From Deltaproteobacteria bacterium (GTDB taxonomy: Bacteria > Myxococcota > Kuafuiibacteriia > Kuafuiibacteriales > Kuafuiibacteriaceae), in NCBI GenBank assembly GCA_016703535.1, contig JADJBV010000001.1, forward strand, positions 6,382,270 through 6,446,269: 64,000 nucleotides of DNA, given 5' to 3'. The position numbers and the translations under genes were made by a program. Below are positions 29,804-38,559 of the stretch, piece by piece; position 1 is the stretch's first letter, and the number at the start of each line of letters is the position of its first letter. The notes beneath the pieces are model-generated. The model had not been told where the DNA came from, did not search any database, and saw only the letters and a program-made list of their open reading frames with translations.

Positions 29804-30166
29804 TTAGGGGACGAAGACCTCGACCCGATCGACCGCGCCGAAGGCCATCACCGAGGCTCCGCCCGGCACGTAGATCCGATCACCAATCGCCGCGGCGCCT
29901 GTCCCGTGCCGGCCGGTGGTCATCGGGCTCAAGCTTGACCACCGCTCGGTCTCAAAGCTCCAAGCCTCGACCGCGTCAAAGACCGCGCTGGCGGCGCCGG
30001 TGTTGCCTTCGCCGCCGAAGACGTAGAGCGCCTCGTTGAGGATCGCGGCGGCGGCGCCTCCTCGAGAGGTCGGCATCGGGGGCCCGGCGCTCCAGGTACC
30101 GGCGGTGGGATCGTAGAGGTCGAGCTGAGCGGTGTGCCCCGTGATGGGTCTCCTTCGGAAAAGGTT
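29804..30166 (-). pseudogene. 3' fragment (about 115 codons) of a Kelch-repeat protein gene truncated at its 5' side
   Basis: Frame reads ...RRRPITGHTAQLDLYDPTAGTWSAGPPMPTSRGGAAAAILNEALYVFGG...GDRIYVPGG. An in-frame stop is at 30167-30169, exactly where GC content drops. Confidence 0.6.
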
Positions 30167-30217
30167 TCAAACACTTCGCCCGTGACATCGGCCGTCCGCC
30201 TCCTTGAAGTTGGGCTC

Positions 30218-31222
30218 ATGGATCTCAATCCGACTCGCCCCACTTTCGACTTCATCCCGATGGGGCCGGGCGCAGGCCCCTTGACGAGTCCCTCGACTTT
30301 CGACGACTCAAGAAGCATGTACATCGAAATGGTGCGGCAGGTCGTCGAGGAGGCGGTTGCTGTTCATGCGGCCGCGGAGAAGAAGACCATCTCCGATGTT
30401 CTGAAGGAAGTTCGCGAGCACATCGACGCAACAGCGAGGGAACATCAGAAGGACGAACCGGCAATCGACTATCAGAATGCGCTGTGTCGGCTTGGCTACC
30501 TCTACCGCCACGCTCCCGCAAACGCGACGTTGTTCGAGCGCGTCCTTCGTGATTGTCCAGACTTCCTGCTCAAGATTAAAGAACGCAACGGAGCGCGGTT
30601 GCACGTGTGCTCGGTTGGCGGGGGACCTGGCACCGAACTCCTTGGGCTCTCGAAGTTCTTACTCAGGCGGCCCGAGCTTGCGCCGAGCAAGATACAGTTC
30701 ACGGTGTTGGATCGGATCCCGCAATGGGCAGAGACCTGGCAGCGCCTGGCCGATGCCGTCGAGGACCAGTTCAAAAAAGCGCCGACGGGCGCCAAGCCGA
30801 GCATTGCTCCCTCGTTCCTGCCCATGGATGTGTGCGATCCGACCTCATACAAGAGCTACGCCTATCATTTCAGCACGGTCGACATTGTGGTCTTCAACTA
30901 CTTGTTCTCGGAGAACAAGACTCGCTTGGCGGCGGCAGCGGAAGCGGCCCGCCACTTGCTCAACTCCAGCCCGGTGGGTGCTTTGTTCCTATTCATCGAT
31001 CGCCACGAAGCAGACGGACAGCTCACAGAGGCCGTGAGAGCAATGATCCCGACGACTCCTCCTTGCACGGCCAACCTGTTTGGAGGGACGATCGATCGGG
31101 ACGAAGACCGGAAGGCGATGGGCGACATGTTGATGGGAGCTTTGGGCAACCCACGAGTGAAGTTCTTCACGGACAACTACCGTGACCCAACGGCTTTTTG
31201 GACGGCGATTCGGCGCACATGA
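30218..31222 (+). CDS. Class I SAM-dependent methyltransferase-like protein (about 334 aa)
   Basis: Rossmann motif I LHVCSVGGGPGTELLGL, acidic beta2 end QFTVLDRI, motif IV DIVVFNYLF. ATG 30218 chosen (alternative 30317). Confidence 0.55.
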   Translation: MDLNPTRPTFDFIPMGPGAGPLTSPSTFDDSRSMYIEMVRQVVEEAVAVHAAAEKKTISDVLKEVREHIDATAREHQKDEPAIDYQNALCRLGYLYRHAPANATLFERVLRDCPDFLLKIKERNGARLHVCSVGGGPGTELLGLSKFLLRRPELAPSKIQFTVLDRIPQWAETWQRLADAVEDQFKKAPTGAKPSIAPSFLPMDVCDPTSYKSYAYHFSTVDIVVFNYLFSENKTRLAAAAEAARHLLNSSPVGALFLFIDRHEADGQLTEAVRAMIPTTPPCTANLFGGTIDRDEDRKAMGDMLMGALGNPRVKFFTDNYRDPTAFWTAIRRT

Positions 31223-32142
31223 TCATCTCCGCCAGCTACAAGACTGACATCCCTGCGTTCTACGGAACGTGGTTTCGAAATCGCCTTCGTGCCGGGTTTT
31301 GCAAGACCGTCAATCCGCTCAATCGCGATCAGCACTCCACGATTTCACTGAAGCGGTCTGACGTCGAAAGCTACGTCTTCTGGACGAAGGGTCAGGGACC
31401 GTTCTTGCCGGTGCTCGATGAGCTGCATGAGGCTGGCTTCCCGTTCATCGTTCAGTACACGATAAACGGCTACCCTCGGGCTCTTGAAACGCGAGTTAGC
31501 GACTCGGATCGGGCCGTCGAACAAATGCAGGTGGTCTCACGTAGGTTCGGTCCCCGAGTAGCTGTCTGGCGCTACGACACCATCGTGCTCTCGTCATTGA
31601 CCGATTTCGCATTCCATCGAAGGAACTTCGAACGGCTTGCTGAAGCTCTCTCCGGAACAACGGACGAAGTCGTCGTCTCGTTTCTTCAGCTCTACCAGAA
31701 GACGAAGCGCAATCTCGACGAAGCCGGACGCGTGGAAGCGTTTGAATGGTGGGATCCAACGGTGGAAGAGAAGAGGGACCTGCTTTCTGCCCTGGCGCAG
31801 ATCGCTGCTTCAAATCGAATGCGACTCACCATTTGCACGCAACCGGACCTTGTCGTGGCCGGTGTCGGGGAGTCTCGCTGCATTGACGGTGAGCGCCTGA
31901 TGGACTTGGCCGGTGGACGATTCCCGGCGAAGGTCAAAGGCATGCGGGAGGGCTGCGGCTGCTACGAGTCGAAGGACATCGGCGACTACGACACGTGCCC
32001 ACATGGATGTGTCTACTGCTACGCCGTTCGCGATCGAGACCTCGCGCTGAATCGGTTTAAGGCTCACGATCCGGAAGGCGAGTACCTGTTTCCCGTTCAG
32101 CCCCCGAAGCCGGCGAGGCAGCTGCGGTTGTTCGGAGAGTAG
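31219..32142 (+). CDS. DUF1848-family protein (putative Fe-S enzyme), 307 aa
   Basis: MIISASYKTDIPAFYGTWFRNRL...FWTK...WRYD matches the DUF1848 N-terminal consensus. C-terminal Cys cluster CGCYESKDIGDYDTCPHGCVYCYA. ATGA overlap with the methyltransferase stop. Confidence 0.65.
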   Translation: MIISASYKTDIPAFYGTWFRNRLRAGFCKTVNPLNRDQHSTISLKRSDVESYVFWTKGQGPFLPVLDELHEAGFPFIVQYTINGYPRALETRVSDSDRAVEQMQVVSRRFGPRVAVWRYDTIVLSSLTDFAFHRRNFERLAEALSGTTDEVVVSFLQLYQKTKRNLDEAGRVEAFEWWDPTVEEKRDLLSALAQIAASNRMRLTICTQPDLVVAGVGESRCIDGERLMDLAGGRFPAKVKGMREGCGCYESKDIGDYDTCPHGCVYCYAVRDRDLALNRFKAHDPEGEYLFPVQPPKPARQLRLFGE

Positions 32143-32670
32143 TGCGGTCGCCCCCACGACCACTCAAGCTGGGTCGAACGCGAGGAGCGTCCTCAGGTGT
32201 GACCGCGGCTGTTACCGCCAGGGCGACTTCGAGCGACTTGGGTGGACAGCGTGAGACGCTCACCCTCAATGTTTGCGCGTATTTCCAAGTCGCTTCGGTC
32301 GCCCTGGCGCCTTTCCCAAGGTTGAAGTCGCGAGTTCGGTTCTCGTGTCCCGCTCTCGTATACCCCCGAAATCTTAGGTGGTTCGAACGACGCGCAGTCG
32401 CTTCGATCCCCCCATTTCGGTAGCTCCGAACCTCCGAACCCGGTCCTCCAGCGATGGAGCGGGGAGCGGGCGCGCTCCACGCTCGAGAAGTACAAGGGGT
32501 GGCGAGAACGGGATCGGGGAGGCGCAGACGATCGTCGCGGTGGGTGGTGCAAGCTACGTTGCGGCGCGGTTGTCGGCGCAGATTGGTGGGCCGGAGGGCA
32601 AGACGATCCTCGGCATCCGTCTACCCAAGCCCAGAACCTGTCGAGTTTTCGCAGGCCGTCCCGACTCAGA

Positions 32671-37150: not shown

Positions 37151-37804
37151 TCAATCTGCAGCGTGAGGCGGTGGGTTCGCAGCGACTTGCCGGTGCTGTG
37201 CCTCGCGGATGCTCACCAGGCTCCGCCGGATGCAGGCGACCTCGCGCTCCCGGACGATTCGCGTCAGTTCGTCCGCGCGGTCGGGAAACTGTTGCGCTAT
37301 CCAAACAGCCCCATTCTCCCAGGCCCCGAGCTCCCGTGCCAGATCGATGGGAGCCGTGCGCACCGCTTCCCGTAGGTCGACGAAGCTTGCAGCAAGGTCT
37401 GGATGAACTCGTTCAAGCTCAGACCAGGCGGCGTCAAAGGTCCGCGCGCCTTGATGTGCCGGCTTGAATCCTTGAAGGAGGTGGCCAAACTCGTGGAGCA
37501 GGTCCGCGATGATCTCCTGTGCACCTGAGGGCGGGGCGGCGTGAAGGTAGATCTTGCTCTGGTCCCACGACACCTTGCTCGTGGCACGAGGGTCCTTGAA
37601 AGGCCGCATCGACCAAACTTGTGCTCGCCAGCTCCGAGGATCCCAGATTCCAGCTGCCGCAAGCTCCGCGTCGCTGACATCCGCAGATTTCCGTTCTCCG
37701 ACGACTTCGATTTCACGTTGGAGGGTGGTTAGCTCAGCCTCGAAGCGCTGGAGGTCGGGGACGTTCTCGAACAGCCTGTTTCGAATCTCGGCGGACGTGG
37801 CCAT
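37151..37804 (-). CDS. HExxH-motif protein (ImmA/IrrE-like Zn-metallopeptidase?), 217 aa
   Basis: IIADLLHEFGHLL. Confidence 0.5.
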   Translation of the reverse strand: MATSAEIRNRLFENVPDLQRFEAELTTLQREIEVVGERKSADVSDAELAAAGIWDPRSWRAQVWSMRPFKDPRATSKVSWDQSKIYLHAAPPSGAQEIIADLLHEFGHLLQGFKPAHQGARTFDAAWSELERVHPDLAASFVDLREAVRTAPIDLARELGAWENGAVWIAQQFPDRADELTRIVREREVACIRRSLVSIREAQHRQVAANPPPHAAD

Positions 37805-37871
37805 TGGAGCATTCTAGAGCCCCTAAGGCGGTGGTGCCCAGGCCGGAATCGAATCGCTTGTCCGGTTTGGG

Positions 37872-38438
37872 TCACCTGCAAGCGCGAGCGGTAGCTGGTT
37901 CCTTGAGAAGATCGTCGCGCCGCTGCTTGGCGATCGGCGTCCATTTCGCCAAAAAGCCGGGTAGGTCTTCGTCAAGAAGGACATCAATGCCGACTGAGGA
38001 TGCTCCAATCCCGGCCAACTCGTTCGTGACGCGCGCTGACGCCGAATTTAAAGCCGCTCGCTTGGTTGAGTTCATCTTCGTGACAGTCTTTCCCCACGGT
38101 TCTCCGTTCGGTCCGACCTGGAACAACACAGTCGCCAACACTGGAGCGCCGAGTCGCGCCATGACCGACAGGCTAGCCGCGTCTTTCACAAGACTCGTCG
38201 TCACACCAACCCCTTCAACCTCGAATGCGGCAACCGGGATCCACAACGGAGATTCGGCAGTCGCGCCTCTCAACGCCCAGATCACGTCAATCGCGTAGTT
38301 CCTATCAGTCCCGAACACGTTGAACTCAGGGACGGCATGAAGGTCAAGGTCGACGCCTGCCTGGCAGAGTCGAGCGCAAACCTCGTGCTTCGACATCGCA
38401 AGTTCGCTCAATCCCGCATGTTGACCGAGCGCGTTCAT
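37872..38438 (-). CDS. Small hypothetical protein (175-189 aa), weak Vsr/DUF559-like (PD-(D/E)xK-like) motif
   Basis: YAIDVIW...PVAAFEVEG resembles Y.vDf...laiEvDG. Start 38438 or 38396. The upstream 2/3 of ORF 37872..39263 is high-GC artefact. Confidence 0.35.
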   Translation of the reverse strand: MNALGQHAGLSELAMSKHEVCARLCQAGVDLDLHAVPEFNVFGTDRNYAIDVIWALRGATAESPLWIPVAAFEVEGVGVTTSLVKDAASLSVMARLGAPVLATVLFQVGPNGEPWGKTVTKMNSTKRAALNSASARVTNELAGIGASSVGIDVLLDEDLPGFLAKWTPIAKQRRDDLLKEPATARACR

Positions 38439-38559
38439 CGCTAATGAAGGAGAGCATCCCTCGACCGGTGCAGAGGAAGCAACGGGCCAGAGGCTGGGGC
38501 GAATAGGAAACTCAAGGGTGGTTGCCGGGGCCACCTCCGCTTGGATCGAGCCGCCATAT

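What the first reader, a model, noticed from the sequence alone, without database searches (positions are those of the whole stretch)
30150..38450. Lower-GC island of about 8.3 kb inserted into a Kelch-repeat gene: candidate undescribed defence/signalling system built around a ThsA-like SIR2-SLOG protein
From about 30160 to about 38440 the base composition drops visibly (mid/high-50s% G+C by eye against about 70% in the flanks). The left edge coincides with the truncation point of a Kelch-repeat ORF (in-frame stop 30167-30169). The right edge abuts a degraded IS91-family transposase. The island carries a six-gene minus-strand array. It consists of a small Vsr-like protein, an HExxH peptidase-like protein and a DUF4065(Panacea)-DUF488 fusion. 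These are followed by an unknown 277-aa protein, a ThsA-like SIR2+SLOG protein and a ThiC-family enzyme. A convergent SAM-methyltransferase/DUF1848 pair sits opposite. SIR2-SLOG is the Thoeris effector architecture (NAD+ depletion on ligand binding by SLOG), yet no TIR-domain ThsB is present. The gene mix of a Panacea hub, an ImmA-like peptidase and a small nuclease-like protein is typical of defence islands. This exact combination is not one I recognise as described.
Basis: partly seen in the sequence, partly recalled or inferred. Interest (0 to 1): 0.9.

Follow-up and report, generated by a model that had tools for sequence, protein, structure and literature searches.

The report
ThsA NADase paired with ThiC-like enzyme
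The low-GC island is a patchwork of separate modules, and its core is a widely conserved two-gene unit in which a Thoeris-type NAD-destroying protein (ThsA) is coupled to a cut-down relative of the vitamin-B1 enzyme ThiC instead of the usual TIR partner, which looks like an undescribed kind of anti-phage system.

Summary
The island is real: 30170-38440 has 59.5% G+C against 67.1% outside it, and gene GC3 is 0.60-0.71 against 0.78-0.92. It is not one eight-gene system.

Only two genes travel together elsewhere. These are a ThsA-type SIR2-SLOG gene (33723-35096, minus strand) and a 351-aa ThiC-like gene (32671-33726, minus strand), joined by an ATGA overlap.
- The same pair, in the same order, is present in all 15 places where enough flank could be read, across six phyla.
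- Its neighbours differ each time and are often defence genes. No TIR gene was seen beside it.

The ThiC-like family keeps every SAM-, metal- and phosphate-binding residue of ThiC. It has replaced the three residues that contact the aminoimidazole ribotide substrate, and it carries a different Cys-rich tail. Sister enzymes pair with membrane proteins instead of ThsA. The ThsA clade keeps the phosphate and ribose contacts of its SLOG pocket but changes the adenine contacts.

Best reading (0.55): a Thoeris-like abortive-infection system in which a radical-SAM enzyme makes the activating ligand.

The other island genes are a PADLOC candidate pair (PDC-M19), a methyltransferase-like/DUF1848 pair, an orphan HExxH protein and a small ORF. 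IS91 fragments lie on both sides. I found no paper linking ThiC to Thoeris.

The parts
33723..35096 (-). CORE gene 1. ThsA-type NADase with SIR2 and SLOG domains, 457 aa from the ATG at 35096; the ORF can be extended to 35132, giving 469 aa. The residue numbers in this report use the 469-aa ORF.
   Evidence: Family and fold:
- PADLOC ThsA1 5.5e-66 over residues 26-429; Pfam SIR2_2 1.4e-24; STALD is weak at 18.9 bits against a cut-off of 24.
- The AF2 model has pLDDT 94 and pTM 0.90. It gives TM 0.74-0.75 to full-length BcThsA (8bto) and to 7uxt, which Foldseek labels SeThsA.

Residues:
- The catalytic N128 and H166 are invariant in 61 sequences.
- G296-(S)297, R382 and E404 match BcThsA G289-S290, R371 and E403.
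32671..33726 (-). CORE gene 2. Short ThiC-like putative radical-SAM enzyme of 351 aa. Its ATG overlaps the thsA stop codon (ATGA).
   Evidence: - Pfam ThiC_Rad_SAM 1.8e-44, but it scores far below the ThiC equivalog cut-offs (153.6 bits against 410, 135 against 460).
- It aligns only with CcThiC residues 202-511, the catalytic barrel.
- The ATGA overlap was read directly.
- Residue signature and Cys-rich tail.
35217..36050 (-). Separate module: PDC-M19B, 277 aa, function unknown.
   Evidence: PADLOC PDLC04508 1.1e-108 over the full length; phrog_25907 2e-63. It is absent from all other loci that carry the ThsA/ThiC-like pair.
36057..36989 (-). Separate module: PDC-M19A, 310 aa from the ATG at 36989. 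A weak winged-helix-like N-terminal part is followed by DUF488.
   Evidence: PADLOC PDLC04505 7.3e-100; Pfam DUF488 8e-28; no DUF4065 even at E <= 10; phrog_14939 7e-49.
37151..37804 (-). Orphan 217-aa protein with an HEFGH motif; function unknown.
   Evidence: No hit in Pfam (E <= 10), NCBIfam (only a sub-threshold 18-bit match), PADLOC or PHROGs. Only one other relative (E = 1e-10) exists among 1.84 billion representative proteins. No plasmid match.
37872..38396 (-). Small ORF of 174 aa from the ATG at 38396 (alternative start 38438); function unknown.
   Evidence: No hit in any of the four HMM libraries. A D...EVE...K pattern is visible by eye only, so a nuclease assignment is untested.
30218..31222 (+). 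Methyltransferase-like gene. Its start is uncertain: GTG 30134, ATG 30218 or ATG 30317.
   Evidence: Pfam Methyltransf_34 6e-07, 29.4 bits against a cut-off of 26. Its stop overlaps the DUF1848 start codon (ATGA).
31219..32142 (+). DUF1848 protein of 307 aa, convergent with the ThiC-like gene.
   Evidence: Pfam DUF1848 1.5e-88; PADLOC RTasDUF1848 3.2e-43. DUF1848 is reported as the partner of the methylase-RT fusions of the UG25 group (bioRxiv 10.1101/2021.12.02.470933).
29804..30166 (-). C-terminal fragment of a Kelch-repeat gene, cut at the left edge of the island. Its GC3 of 0.83 is host-like.
   Evidence: Kelch_1 2.2e-16. No N-terminal half is found at 38.3-41.5 kb.
28785..29411 (-). IS91-family transposase fragment (N-terminal zinc-binding part).
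   Evidence: Zn_Tnp_IS91 1.8e-05, 25.1 bits against a cut-off of 26.3, so just under threshold. It contains the left copy of the 151-nt repeat, 28889-29039.
38716..39743 (-). IS91-family transposase fragments (Y2_Tnp catalytic part, in two frames), abutting the right edge of the island.
   Evidence: Y2_Tnp 1.7e-16 and 1.1e-04. It contains the right copy of the repeat, 39543-39692, 93% identical to the left copy.

Best explanation
The 8.3-kb island is horizontally acquired DNA lying between IS91 remnants. It holds several independent modules. The functional unit of interest is the two-gene operon thsA (SIR2-SLOG) followed by a ThiC-like gene.

Proposed mechanism, which is inferred and not shown:
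1. On phage infection, the ThiC-like enzyme uses SAM, an Fe-S cluster on its C-terminal C-x8-C-x2-C-x3-C-P tail, and its conserved His/His metal site to rearrange a ribose-5-phosphate-type metabolite other than aminoimidazole ribotide (AIR).
2. The product binds the SLOG domain of the cognate ThsA.
3. ThsA's SIR2 domain then hydrolyses NAD+ and aborts the infection.

This is the logic of type I Thoeris, with a radical-SAM enzyme in place of the TIR signal generator. Related short ThiC-like enzymes pair with membrane proteins instead of ThsA, as expected for a signal synthase with exchangeable effectors.

Shown here:
- The pair is conserved and is the only conserved unit of the island.
- The catalytic residues are kept and the substrate-contact residues are changed.
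- The ThsA fold and its catalytic residues are present.
- No TIR is present.
- The pair sits in defence-type neighbourhoods.

Inferred: enzymatic activity, existence of a small-molecule signal, NAD+ depletion, and anti-phage function.
For: 1. Conserved pair.
- SIR2-SLOG lies immediately upstream of the ThiC-like gene on the same strand, adjacent or overlapping, in the window and in L001-L009, L011-L013, L087 and L088. That is 15 of 15 places with readable flank.
- The hosts are Myxococcota, Alpha-, Beta- and Gammaproteobacteria, Bacillota, Bacteroidota and Acidobacteriota.
- Two of these loci were reached from the ThsA side rather than the ThiC side.

2. Only the pair is conserved. No other island gene recurs in those loci.

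3. Distinct ThsA clade.
- Bit scores are >= 300 within the clade and <= 122 to the next relatives.
- One of those relatives, from Xanthomonas, has ThsB_TIR next to it.

4. ThiC-like residues in 120 family members, against the AtThiC residue list of PMC4389238.
- L259, Y286, H322, S342-R343-G344, R386, E422, H426, E489 and H490 are kept in 119-120 of 120.
- N228 becomes L (116/120), D383 becomes A/T/S (120/120) and Y449 becomes M (117/120).
- The tail TC-x8-C-x2-C-x3-CP is present in >= 114 of 120.

5. Sister clade.
- Twenty-three gut and rumen metagenome loci have the same derived signature but no SIR2-SLOG.
- Twenty of the 23 have a conserved downstream protein with about 260 soluble residues and three C-terminal membrane-type helices. 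One more (L016) has a different upstream partner with hydrophobic C-terminal segments.
- In a neighbour-joining tree the two groups together form one clade apart from canonical ThiC.

6. SLOG pocket.
- The equivalents of BcThsA G289-S290, R371 and E403 (diphosphate and ribose contacts) are invariant in both clades.
- Q359 becomes N. The loop holding L326 changes from G-x-G-L-G to G-Q-S-x-G. There is a clade-specific insertion of about 9 residues.

7. Defence context.
- Seventy-six neighbours of the pair hit type I, II and III restriction-modification components, GajA (1e-110), GajB, LmuB, CapP and PDC-S50, 293 PADLOC families in all.
- Seventy-six neighbours of canonical ThiC hit 114 families, mostly generic.

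8. Not housekeeping thiC.
- There is no TPP riboswitch.
- The gene scores below the ThiC equivalog cut-offs.
- It lies in a low-GC island.
Against: - No experiment exists: neither phage defence, NADase activity nor radical-SAM turnover has been shown for any member.
- The ThiC-like protein has no extra domain that could obviously sense infection.
- Four conserved cysteines could fully ligate the cluster. The Met that stacks on the SAM adenine in ThiC (CxMC) is Arg here (CxRC), so SAM cleavage is not guaranteed.
- The family was not found in IMG/VR viral contigs or PLSDB plasmids, so its mobility is inferred from context only.
- The defence-neighbour comparison is crude: it counts families, not loci.
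- Burroughs et al. 2015, the paper I recall as defining the STALD SLOG family (my own knowledge), is not in the held library, so an earlier mention of this gene association cannot be excluded.
Confidence: 0.55

Rival explanations
1. Guard or toxin-antitoxin-like arrangement. The ThiC-like enzyme works all the time. It either removes a normal metabolite that would otherwise activate ThsA through SLOG, or makes an inhibitory ligand. Infection stops the enzyme, for example through phage SAM lyase, loss of reductant or Fe-S supply, or host shut-off, and that unleashes the NADase.
For: - The effector comes first, with tight translational coupling (ATGA overlap), as in many toxin-antitoxin pairs.
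- The enzyme has no sensor domain.
- Its catalytic residues are strictly conserved, so activity matters.
Against: - The sister clade has the opposite gene order, enzyme first and membrane partner second.
- In the solved ThsA complex the SLOG ligand is an activator; I know of no ThsA ligand that inhibits (own knowledge).
- Nothing here separates this reading from the signal-synthase reading.
Confidence: 0.15
2. Two effectors. The SLOG domain directly senses a phage- or infection-derived nucleotide. The ThiC-like enzyme is a second, viperin-like arm that converts a nucleotide into an antiviral or modified nucleotide rather than into a signal.
For: - Radical-SAM enzymes already act in defence as makers of modified nucleotides (prokaryotic viperins; own knowledge).
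- The phosphate and ribose contacts are kept while the base contacts are changed.
Against: - The strict 15-of-15 coupling with one dedicated ThsA clade, and the correlated changes in the SLOG pocket, fit ligand-receptor co-evolution better.
- The sister enzymes pair with membrane proteins that look like effectors, not sensors.
Confidence: 0.12
3. The pair is not immunity. It is a small metabolic or salvage cassette, for example NAD-, thiamine- or benzimidazole-related, that happens to be mobile.
For: - ThiC relatives are biosynthetic enzymes: ThiC itself, and BzaB is among the NCBIfam hits.
- In Desulforamulus the pair sits among housekeeping genes.
- It was not found on plasmids or viral contigs.
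Against: - The ThsA fold, with its NADase catalytic residues, matches antiphage effectors.
- The pair has no fixed neighbours or pathway genes. It is scattered across seven bacterial lineages and lies next to restriction-modification, Gabija, Lamassu, CapP, NACHT, Cap4-nuclease, integrase and resolvase genes.
- In the window it lies in a low-GC island.
Confidence: 0.08
4. One reading: the whole minus-strand array, with or without the methyltransferase/DUF1848 pair, is one integrated multi-gene system built around ThsA.
For: The genes are adjacent, co-oriented and share the low G+C.
Against: - None of the other genes accompanies the pair in 12 other loci.
- PDC-M19A/B is a self-standing two-gene candidate with its own PADLOC and PHROG families.
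- Gaps of about 120 and 160 nt separate the modules.
- The HExxH protein is an orphan.
Confidence: 0.05

Closest known systems
Type I Thoeris (ThsA SIR2-SLOG effector plus ThsB TIR signal generator making 3'cADPR)
   Same: - Two-gene unit with the same effector architecture and fold (TM 0.74-0.75 to BcThsA and 7uxt).
- Catalytic Asn and His are present.
- The SLOG residues that hold the ligand's diphosphate and ribose are conserved.
- It sits in defence-island settings.
   Different: - There is no TIR gene. The partner is a ThiC-family enzyme.
- The ThsA belongs to a separate clade, 26-28% identical to TIR-linked ThsA.
- The adenine-contact positions are altered and the SLOG domain has a 9-residue insertion.
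- PADLOC or DefenseFinder rules that require ThsB would not call it.
ThiC (HMP-P synthase) and its paralogues such as BzaB
   Same: Homologous catalytic (beta/alpha)8 barrel. All residues that bind SAM, the extra metal and the substrate phosphate are kept.
   Different: - It lacks the N-terminal domain (about 200 aa) and most of the C-terminal linker.
- The tail is C-x8-C-x2-C-x3-C-P with CxRC, not CxMCGxxFC.
- Asn228, Asp383 and Tyr449, the contacts to the AIR ribose and imidazole, are replaced by Leu, Ala and Met.
- It scores far below the equivalog cut-offs, has no TPP riboswitch and is not in a thiamine or B12 operon.
Prokaryotic viperins (radical-SAM defence enzymes)
   Same: A radical-SAM-type enzyme acting on a nucleotide-like substrate in an antiviral setting (own knowledge, not tested here).
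   Different: It belongs to an unrelated radical-SAM family and fold. Viperins act alone and make chain terminators, whereas here the enzyme is obligatorily paired with a ligand-gated effector.
CBASS and Pycsar (signal synthase with exchangeable effectors)
   Same: One enzyme clade is coupled to alternative effector types: an NADase, or proteins with C-terminal membrane helices.
   Different: The enzyme family is different. No cyclase or nucleotidyltransferase is present, and the existence of a signal is only inferred.
PDC-M19 (PADLOC phage-defence candidate), for genes 35217-36989
   Same: Both components match their HMMs over the full length and are adjacent.
   Different: Nothing differs. 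It is an ordinary member of a catalogued candidate. I know of no experimental validation, and no paper in the library mentions it.

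Membership tests
Type I Thoeris | Effector with an N-terminal SIR2 and a C-terminal SLOG domain | tested here: met
   PADLOC ThsA1 5.5e-66. A profile of seven pair-linked ThsA sequences aligns with 7uxt_B over residues 33-470. The AF2 model gives TM 0.74-0.75 to full-length ThsA structures.
Type I Thoeris | SIR2 catalytic Asn and His (BcThsA N112 and H152) | tested here: met
   N128 and H166 of the 469-aa ORF are invariant in 61 aligned ThsA sequences.
Type I Thoeris | Adjacent TIR-domain ThsB that makes the signal | tested here: not met
   None of the eight island proteins has a TIR hit. None of the called genes around the pair in L002-L006, L087 and L088 has one. A distant ThsA, P0185, does have ThsB_TIR next to it.
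Type I Thoeris | SLOG pocket residues that bind 3'cADPR (S290, R371, K388, E403, L326, Q359 of BcThsA) | tested here: inconclusive
   The G-S, R and E equivalents are invariant. The Q359 equivalent is Asn in 100% of the ThiC-linked clade and Gln in 92% of the TIR-linked clade. The L326 loop differs. K388 could not be mapped.
Type I Thoeris | Phage-triggered NAD+ depletion and protection | not testable with these tools
   Needs cloning, phage challenge and NAD+ assays.
ThiC (phosphomethylpyrimidine synthase) | Score above the curated equivalog cut-off | tested here: not met
   NF009895 scores 153.6 bits against 410. TIGR00190 scores 135.2 against 460. BzaB TIGR04386 scores 118 against 700.
ThiC (phosphomethylpyrimidine synthase) | Residues that contact SAM, the second metal and the substrate phosphate | tested here: met
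   L259, Y286, H322, S342-R343-G344, R386, E422, H426, E489 and H490 are kept in 119-120 of 120.
ThiC (phosphomethylpyrimidine synthase) | Residues that contact the AIR ribose and imidazole (N228, D383, Y449) | tested here: not met
   They are replaced by L, A/T/S and M across the family.
ThiC (phosphomethylpyrimidine synthase) | C-terminal CX2CX4C cluster motif with Met between the first two Cys | tested here: not met
   The tail is C-x8-C-x2-C-x3-C-P with Arg in place of Met. Some canonical-tier sequences also have CX2CX3C, but with Met.
ThiC (phosphomethylpyrimidine synthase) | Thiamine-regulated context (TPP riboswitch or thi genes) | tested here: not met
   No TPP riboswitch at E <= 0.1 in 26.0-41.5 kb. 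The gene is translationally coupled to thsA.
PDC-M19 (PADLOC candidate) | Adjacent M19A (DUF488-containing) and M19B genes | tested here: met
   E = 7.3e-100 and 1.1e-108 with full-length matches. The genes are 6 nt apart.
Panacea (DUF4065) toxin-antitoxin hub | DUF4065 domain | tested here: not met
   No DUF4065 match in the 310- or 415-aa versions at E <= 10. There are only weak winged-helix-type hits.
Vsr / PD-(D/E)xK nuclease (small ORF 37872-38396) | Match to a nuclease family model | tested here: not met
   No hit in Pfam (E <= 10), NCBIfam, PADLOC or PHROGs. No structure was predicted.
IS91 family | Intact transposase with a zinc-binding N-domain and a Y2 catalytic domain | tested here: not met
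   Only fragments are present. Zn_Tnp_IS91 is on the left at 25.1 bits against a cut-off of 26.3. Y2_Tnp is in two frames on the right.

The most novel reading that the evidence does not exclude
Short ThiC-like enzymes are the signal synthases of a previously unrecognised family of signalling-based immune systems. A radical-SAM rearrangement of a ribose-phosphate metabolite makes a new class of second messenger. That messenger gates either a ThsA-type NADase (this window and at least 14 other loci) or membrane-helix proteins of unknown fold (gut Bacteroidales). It would be the first immune messenger made by radical chemistry rather than by a cyclase, nucleotidyltransferase or TIR domain.
Probability: 0.4. 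Interest if true: 0.92.

Novelty: new variant of a known kind. Interest (0 to 1): 0.8.

Why it matters
Every Thoeris type described in the papers I read uses a TIR protein to make the signal. This is a ThsA clade that has exchanged TIR for a vitamin-biosynthesis-type radical-SAM enzyme.
- It would show that SLOG-gated NADases can be driven by a chemically different messenger.
- It would add radical-SAM chemistry to immune signalling.
- It would give a function to hundreds of genes that annotation pipelines now name 'phosphomethylpyrimidine synthase ThiC'. That naming also matters for metabolic reconstructions that count these genes as thiamine biosynthesis.
- The system is only about 2.4 kb and two genes, so the hypothesis can be tested directly.

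Tried and rejected
- One large system. Rejected: BLAST of all island proteins against 12 other pair-bearing loci found only ThsA and the ThiC-like protein.
- Island splitting a Kelch gene. The other half was not found right of the island.
- Presence on phages or plasmids. There were no relatives in IMG/VR and none in PLSDB at E <= 1e-40.
- SLOG region alone against PDB by phmmer. No hit. A seven-sequence profile was needed.
- HExxH protein. There are no family hits and essentially no homologues, so the 'ImmA-like' label cannot be tested.
- DUF1848 on plasmids. Its neighbours are AlkB or an endonuclease, with no upstream methyltransferase annotated. The pairing seen in the window is therefore not general.
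- Promoter and terminator scans gave counts no higher than in shuffled sequence.
- A sub-threshold Guanidine-II hit at 32651-32696 (28.4 bits against 32) coincides with a terminator-like hairpin. I treat it as chance.
- Literature. ThiC with Thoeris, ThiC with SIR2, radical SAM with ThsA, ThiC-like with phage, and PDC-M19 all returned nothing relevant.

Full report
**1. The observation**

Region 30170-38440 has G+C 0.595, against 0.671 for the window outside 26.6-40.3 kb. One-kb windows give 0.595 +/- 0.022 inside and 0.672 +/- 0.019 outside (Mann-Whitney p = 5e-10). Third-position G+C of the island genes is 0.60-0.71, against 0.78-0.92 for flanking genes. The island is therefore real and foreign, and both edges fall within about 50 nt of the stated coordinates.

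The flanks beyond it encode ordinary host proteins: multihaem cytochromes, cytochrome b561, an alcohol dehydrogenase, and TPR, AAA and PKD proteins. There is no tRNA gene in 20-46 kb.

**2. The edges**

- The Kelch piece (29804-30166) is on the minus strand.
- Its missing N-terminal half is not on the other side of the island. tblastn finds only an unrelated Kelch protein at 13.5-14.4 kb. Insertion into a Kelch gene is therefore not demonstrated.
- IS91 remnants lie on both sides. A zinc-binding N-terminal fragment is at 28785-29411 (just under the Pfam cut-off), and Y2_Tnp fragments are at 38716-39743.
- The two share a 151-nt direct repeat, 28889-29039 and 39543-39692, at 93% identity.
- Left of that is an HD/AAA_33 gene and an RNA-ligase gene (26668-28643).
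- The variable segment is thus about 26.6-40.3 kb, and the low-GC part is bracketed by IS91 debris. Capture by IS91-type rolling-circle transposition is plausible but untested.

**3. Gene content**

| Coordinates (strand) | Assignment | Key evidence |
|---|---|---|
| 30218?-31222 (+) | Methyltransferase-like | Methyltransf_34, 29 bits |
| 31219-32142 (+) | DUF1848 | 1.5e-88; PADLOC RTasDUF1848 3e-43 |
| 32671-33726 (-) | ThiC-like | ThiC_Rad_SAM 2e-44 |
| 33723-35096 (-) | ThsA | PADLOC ThsA1 5.5e-66; SIR2_2 1e-24 |
| 35217-36050 (-) | PDC-M19B | 1e-108 |
| 36057-36989 (-) | PDC-M19A | 7e-100; DUF488 |
| 37151-37804 (-) | HEFGH protein | No hits |
| 37872-38396 (-) | Small ORF | No hits |

- DUF4065/Panacea is not detected even at E <= 10.
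- The HEFGH protein is an orphan, with one other relative among 1.84 billion representatives.
- Two gene pairs are translationally coupled through ATGA overlaps: thsA with the ThiC-like gene, and the methyltransferase-like gene with DUF1848.

**4. What belongs together**

A genome scan with the ThiC-like protein found a Flavobacterium MAG in which a ThsA homologue is followed 5 nt later by a ThiC-like gene.

The protein has at least 120 cluster representatives at 52-65% identity, about 350 aa long. Where a source names them, they are nearly always called 'phosphomethylpyrimidine synthase ThiC'.

Contexts fetched from Bradyrhizobium, Paenibacillus, Desulforamulus, Myxococcus and Methylicorpusculum all show a SIR2_2 gene directly upstream.

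Metagenome loci were scored with HMMs built here. They fall into three tiers:
- Tier 1: every locus with readable flank has SIR2 plus SLOG upstream.
- Tier 2: 23 loci, 32-37% identical, with no SIR2-SLOG.
- Tier 3: canonical ThiC.

Starting instead from ThsA, the hits show a sharp gap, at least 300 bits against at most 122 bits.
- Two members of the near group that had not been reached through ThiC (Comamonas, Acidobacteriota) have ThiC_Rad_SAM overlapping downstream.
- A member of the far group (Xanthomonas) has ThsB_TIR next to it.

In total 15 of 15 readable places carry the pair. None carries any other gene of the window's island. The unit is two genes, and the island is a mosaic.

**5. 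The ThiC-like enzyme**

It aligns only with the catalytic barrel of Caulobacter ThiC, residues 202-511. It scores far below the ThiC and BzaB equivalog cut-offs. I used the residue roles described for Arabidopsis ThiC (PMC4389238) and an alignment of 120 family members.

- Kept in 119-120 of 120:
  - SAM contacts L259, R343, R386 and E489.
  - Second-metal ligands H426 and H490.
  - Phosphate site Y286, H322, S342, R343-G344 and R386.
  - Ribose contact E422.
- Replaced: N228 by Leu (116/120), D383 (imidazole N3 contact) by Ala, Thr or Ser (120/120), and Y449 (stacks on the amino group) by Met (117/120).
- C-terminus: T-C-x8-C-x2-C-x3-C-P in at least 114 of 120, with CxRC instead of the CxMC of ThiC.

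This is the pattern of an enzyme under selection for catalysis on a phosphorylated ribosyl substrate other than AIR. No TPP riboswitch is present.

**6. The sister clade**

Tier-2 enzymes share the derived D383, Y449 and CxRC changes but keep N228.

- In 20 of 23 loci they are followed by a conserved protein of about 350 aa with no Pfam match. It has a soluble beta-rich part of about 260 residues and three C-terminal hydrophobic helices.
- One locus (L016) instead has an upstream 425-aa protein with hydrophobic C-terminal segments that overlaps the enzyme's start.
- In a neighbour-joining tree tiers 1 and 2 form a single clade apart from canonical ThiC, with tier 1 nested inside.
- One enzyme clade coupled to alternative, effector-like partners is the arrangement seen in signalling-based defence systems.
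- The fold search of the membrane partner gave nothing interpretable.

**7. The ThsA partner**

The AF2 model (pLDDT 94, pTM 0.90) superposes on full-length ThsA structures, 8bto and 7uxt, at TM 0.74-0.75. The catalytic N128 and H166 are invariant.

I compared 48 ThiC-linked with 13 TIR-type ThsA sequences, against the published 3'cADPR contacts of BcThsA.
- The G289-S290, R371 and E403 equivalents, which contact the diphosphate and ribose, are conserved in both clades.
- The adenine-stacking Q359 is Asn in all ThiC-linked proteins.
- The loop carrying L326 is G-Q-S-x-G instead of G-x-G-L-G.
- There is a clade-specific insertion of about 9 residues.

The receptor pocket and the enzyme pocket thus both keep their phosphate and ribose features and both change their base-contact features.

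**8. Defence context**

The pair's neighbours include:
- type I restriction-modification genes and an SLFN/AlbA gene;
- NACHT/STAND NTPases;
- a PLD-helicase and resolvases;
- a Cap4-type nuclease;
- M78/CapP peptidases;
- Gabija and Lamassu components.

A matched set of neighbours of canonical ThiC gave mostly generic hits such as ThiF-type E1 enzymes. In Desulforamulus the pair is simply inserted among housekeeping genes.

**9. Mechanism and rivals**

Most likely (0.55): a Thoeris-like abortive-infection module in which the ThiC-like enzyme supplies the SLOG ligand and ThsA depletes NAD+.

Rivals:
- A guard or antitoxin-like arrangement in which the enzyme holds ThsA off (0.15).
- Two parallel effectors (0.12).
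- A non-immune metabolic cassette (0.08).

None of the enzymatic or phenotypic steps is shown.

**10. Novelty**

PADLOC v2 has no model for the ThiC-like protein, and rules that require ThsB would not report this locus. Full-text searches found nothing relevant for ThiC with Thoeris, ThiC with SIR2, radical SAM with ThsA, or ThiC-like with phage. A 2025 survey of TIR-based systems does not mention it. The 2015 paper that, as I recall, defined STALD is not held, so an early mention of the association cannot be excluded.

I rate the finding a new variant of a known kind: a Thoeris-type effector with a non-TIR partner of a new enzyme class. There is a substantial chance that it represents a new signalling family.

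Noticed in passing
window 26668-28643 (-): An HD plus AAA_33 (polynucleotide-kinase-like) gene overlaps an RNA-ligase gene. Together they look like an RNA-repair pair. They sit directly left of the IS91 fragment and have slightly lower G+C than the host genes.
   Followed up: partly
window 28889-29039 and 39543-39692: A 151-nt direct repeat (93% identity) lies inside IS91 transposase fragments that bracket the island. The left copy keeps the zinc-binding N-terminal part and the right copy keeps the Y2 catalytic part. The arrangement looks like a rearranged or permuted IS91 and hints at IS91-mediated capture of the island.
   Followed up: partly
window 30218-32142 (+): The methyltransferase-like gene and the DUF1848 gene are coupled by an ATGA overlap. 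DUF1848 is the reported partner of the methylase-RT fusions of the UG25 group, so this may be an RT-less relative of that module. On plasmids DUF1848 has other neighbours (AlkB, an endonuclease).
   Followed up: partly
window 37151-37804 (-): The 217-aa HEFGH-motif protein is essentially an orphan. Only one other relative (E = 1e-10) exists among 1.84 billion representative proteins.
   Followed up: yes
L014-L036, e.g. L017 5953-8089 (+): Gut and rumen metagenome contigs carry a sister clade of short ThiC-like enzymes. Each is followed by a conserved protein of about 350 aa of unknown fold with three C-terminal membrane-type helices. Some have QueC-like, TatD and DNA-methylase genes nearby.
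   Followed up: partly
L016 4658-7062 (+): A third partner type: a 425-aa protein with hydrophobic C-terminal segments lies upstream of, and overlaps, a short ThiC-like gene.
   Followed up: no
window 32651-32696 (-): A sub-threshold Guanidine-II riboswitch match (28.4 bits against 32, E = 0.026) lies just after the ThiC-like stop codon. It coincides with a terminator-like hairpin and is probably chance.
   Followed up: partly
window 40187-40244: A 27-nt inverted repeat (85% complementary, 4-nt loop) lies beyond the 5' side of the right IS91 fragment. It could be an element end or a hairpin.
   Followed up: no
L001 2491-8548 (+): In the Flavobacterium MAG the pair is preceded by a 1580-aa protein and a 437-aa protein. 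It is followed by a 278-aa protein and, on the opposite strand, a 419-aa and a 131-aa ORF that by eye look like mobilisation genes. This suggests a mobile element carrying several defence-like genes. None of these ORFs was checked against a domain library, apart from the PADLOC batch: it reports no hit for the 1580-aa protein, and does not itemise results for the 437-, 278- and 419-aa ORFs, which were also in the batch.
   Followed up: no
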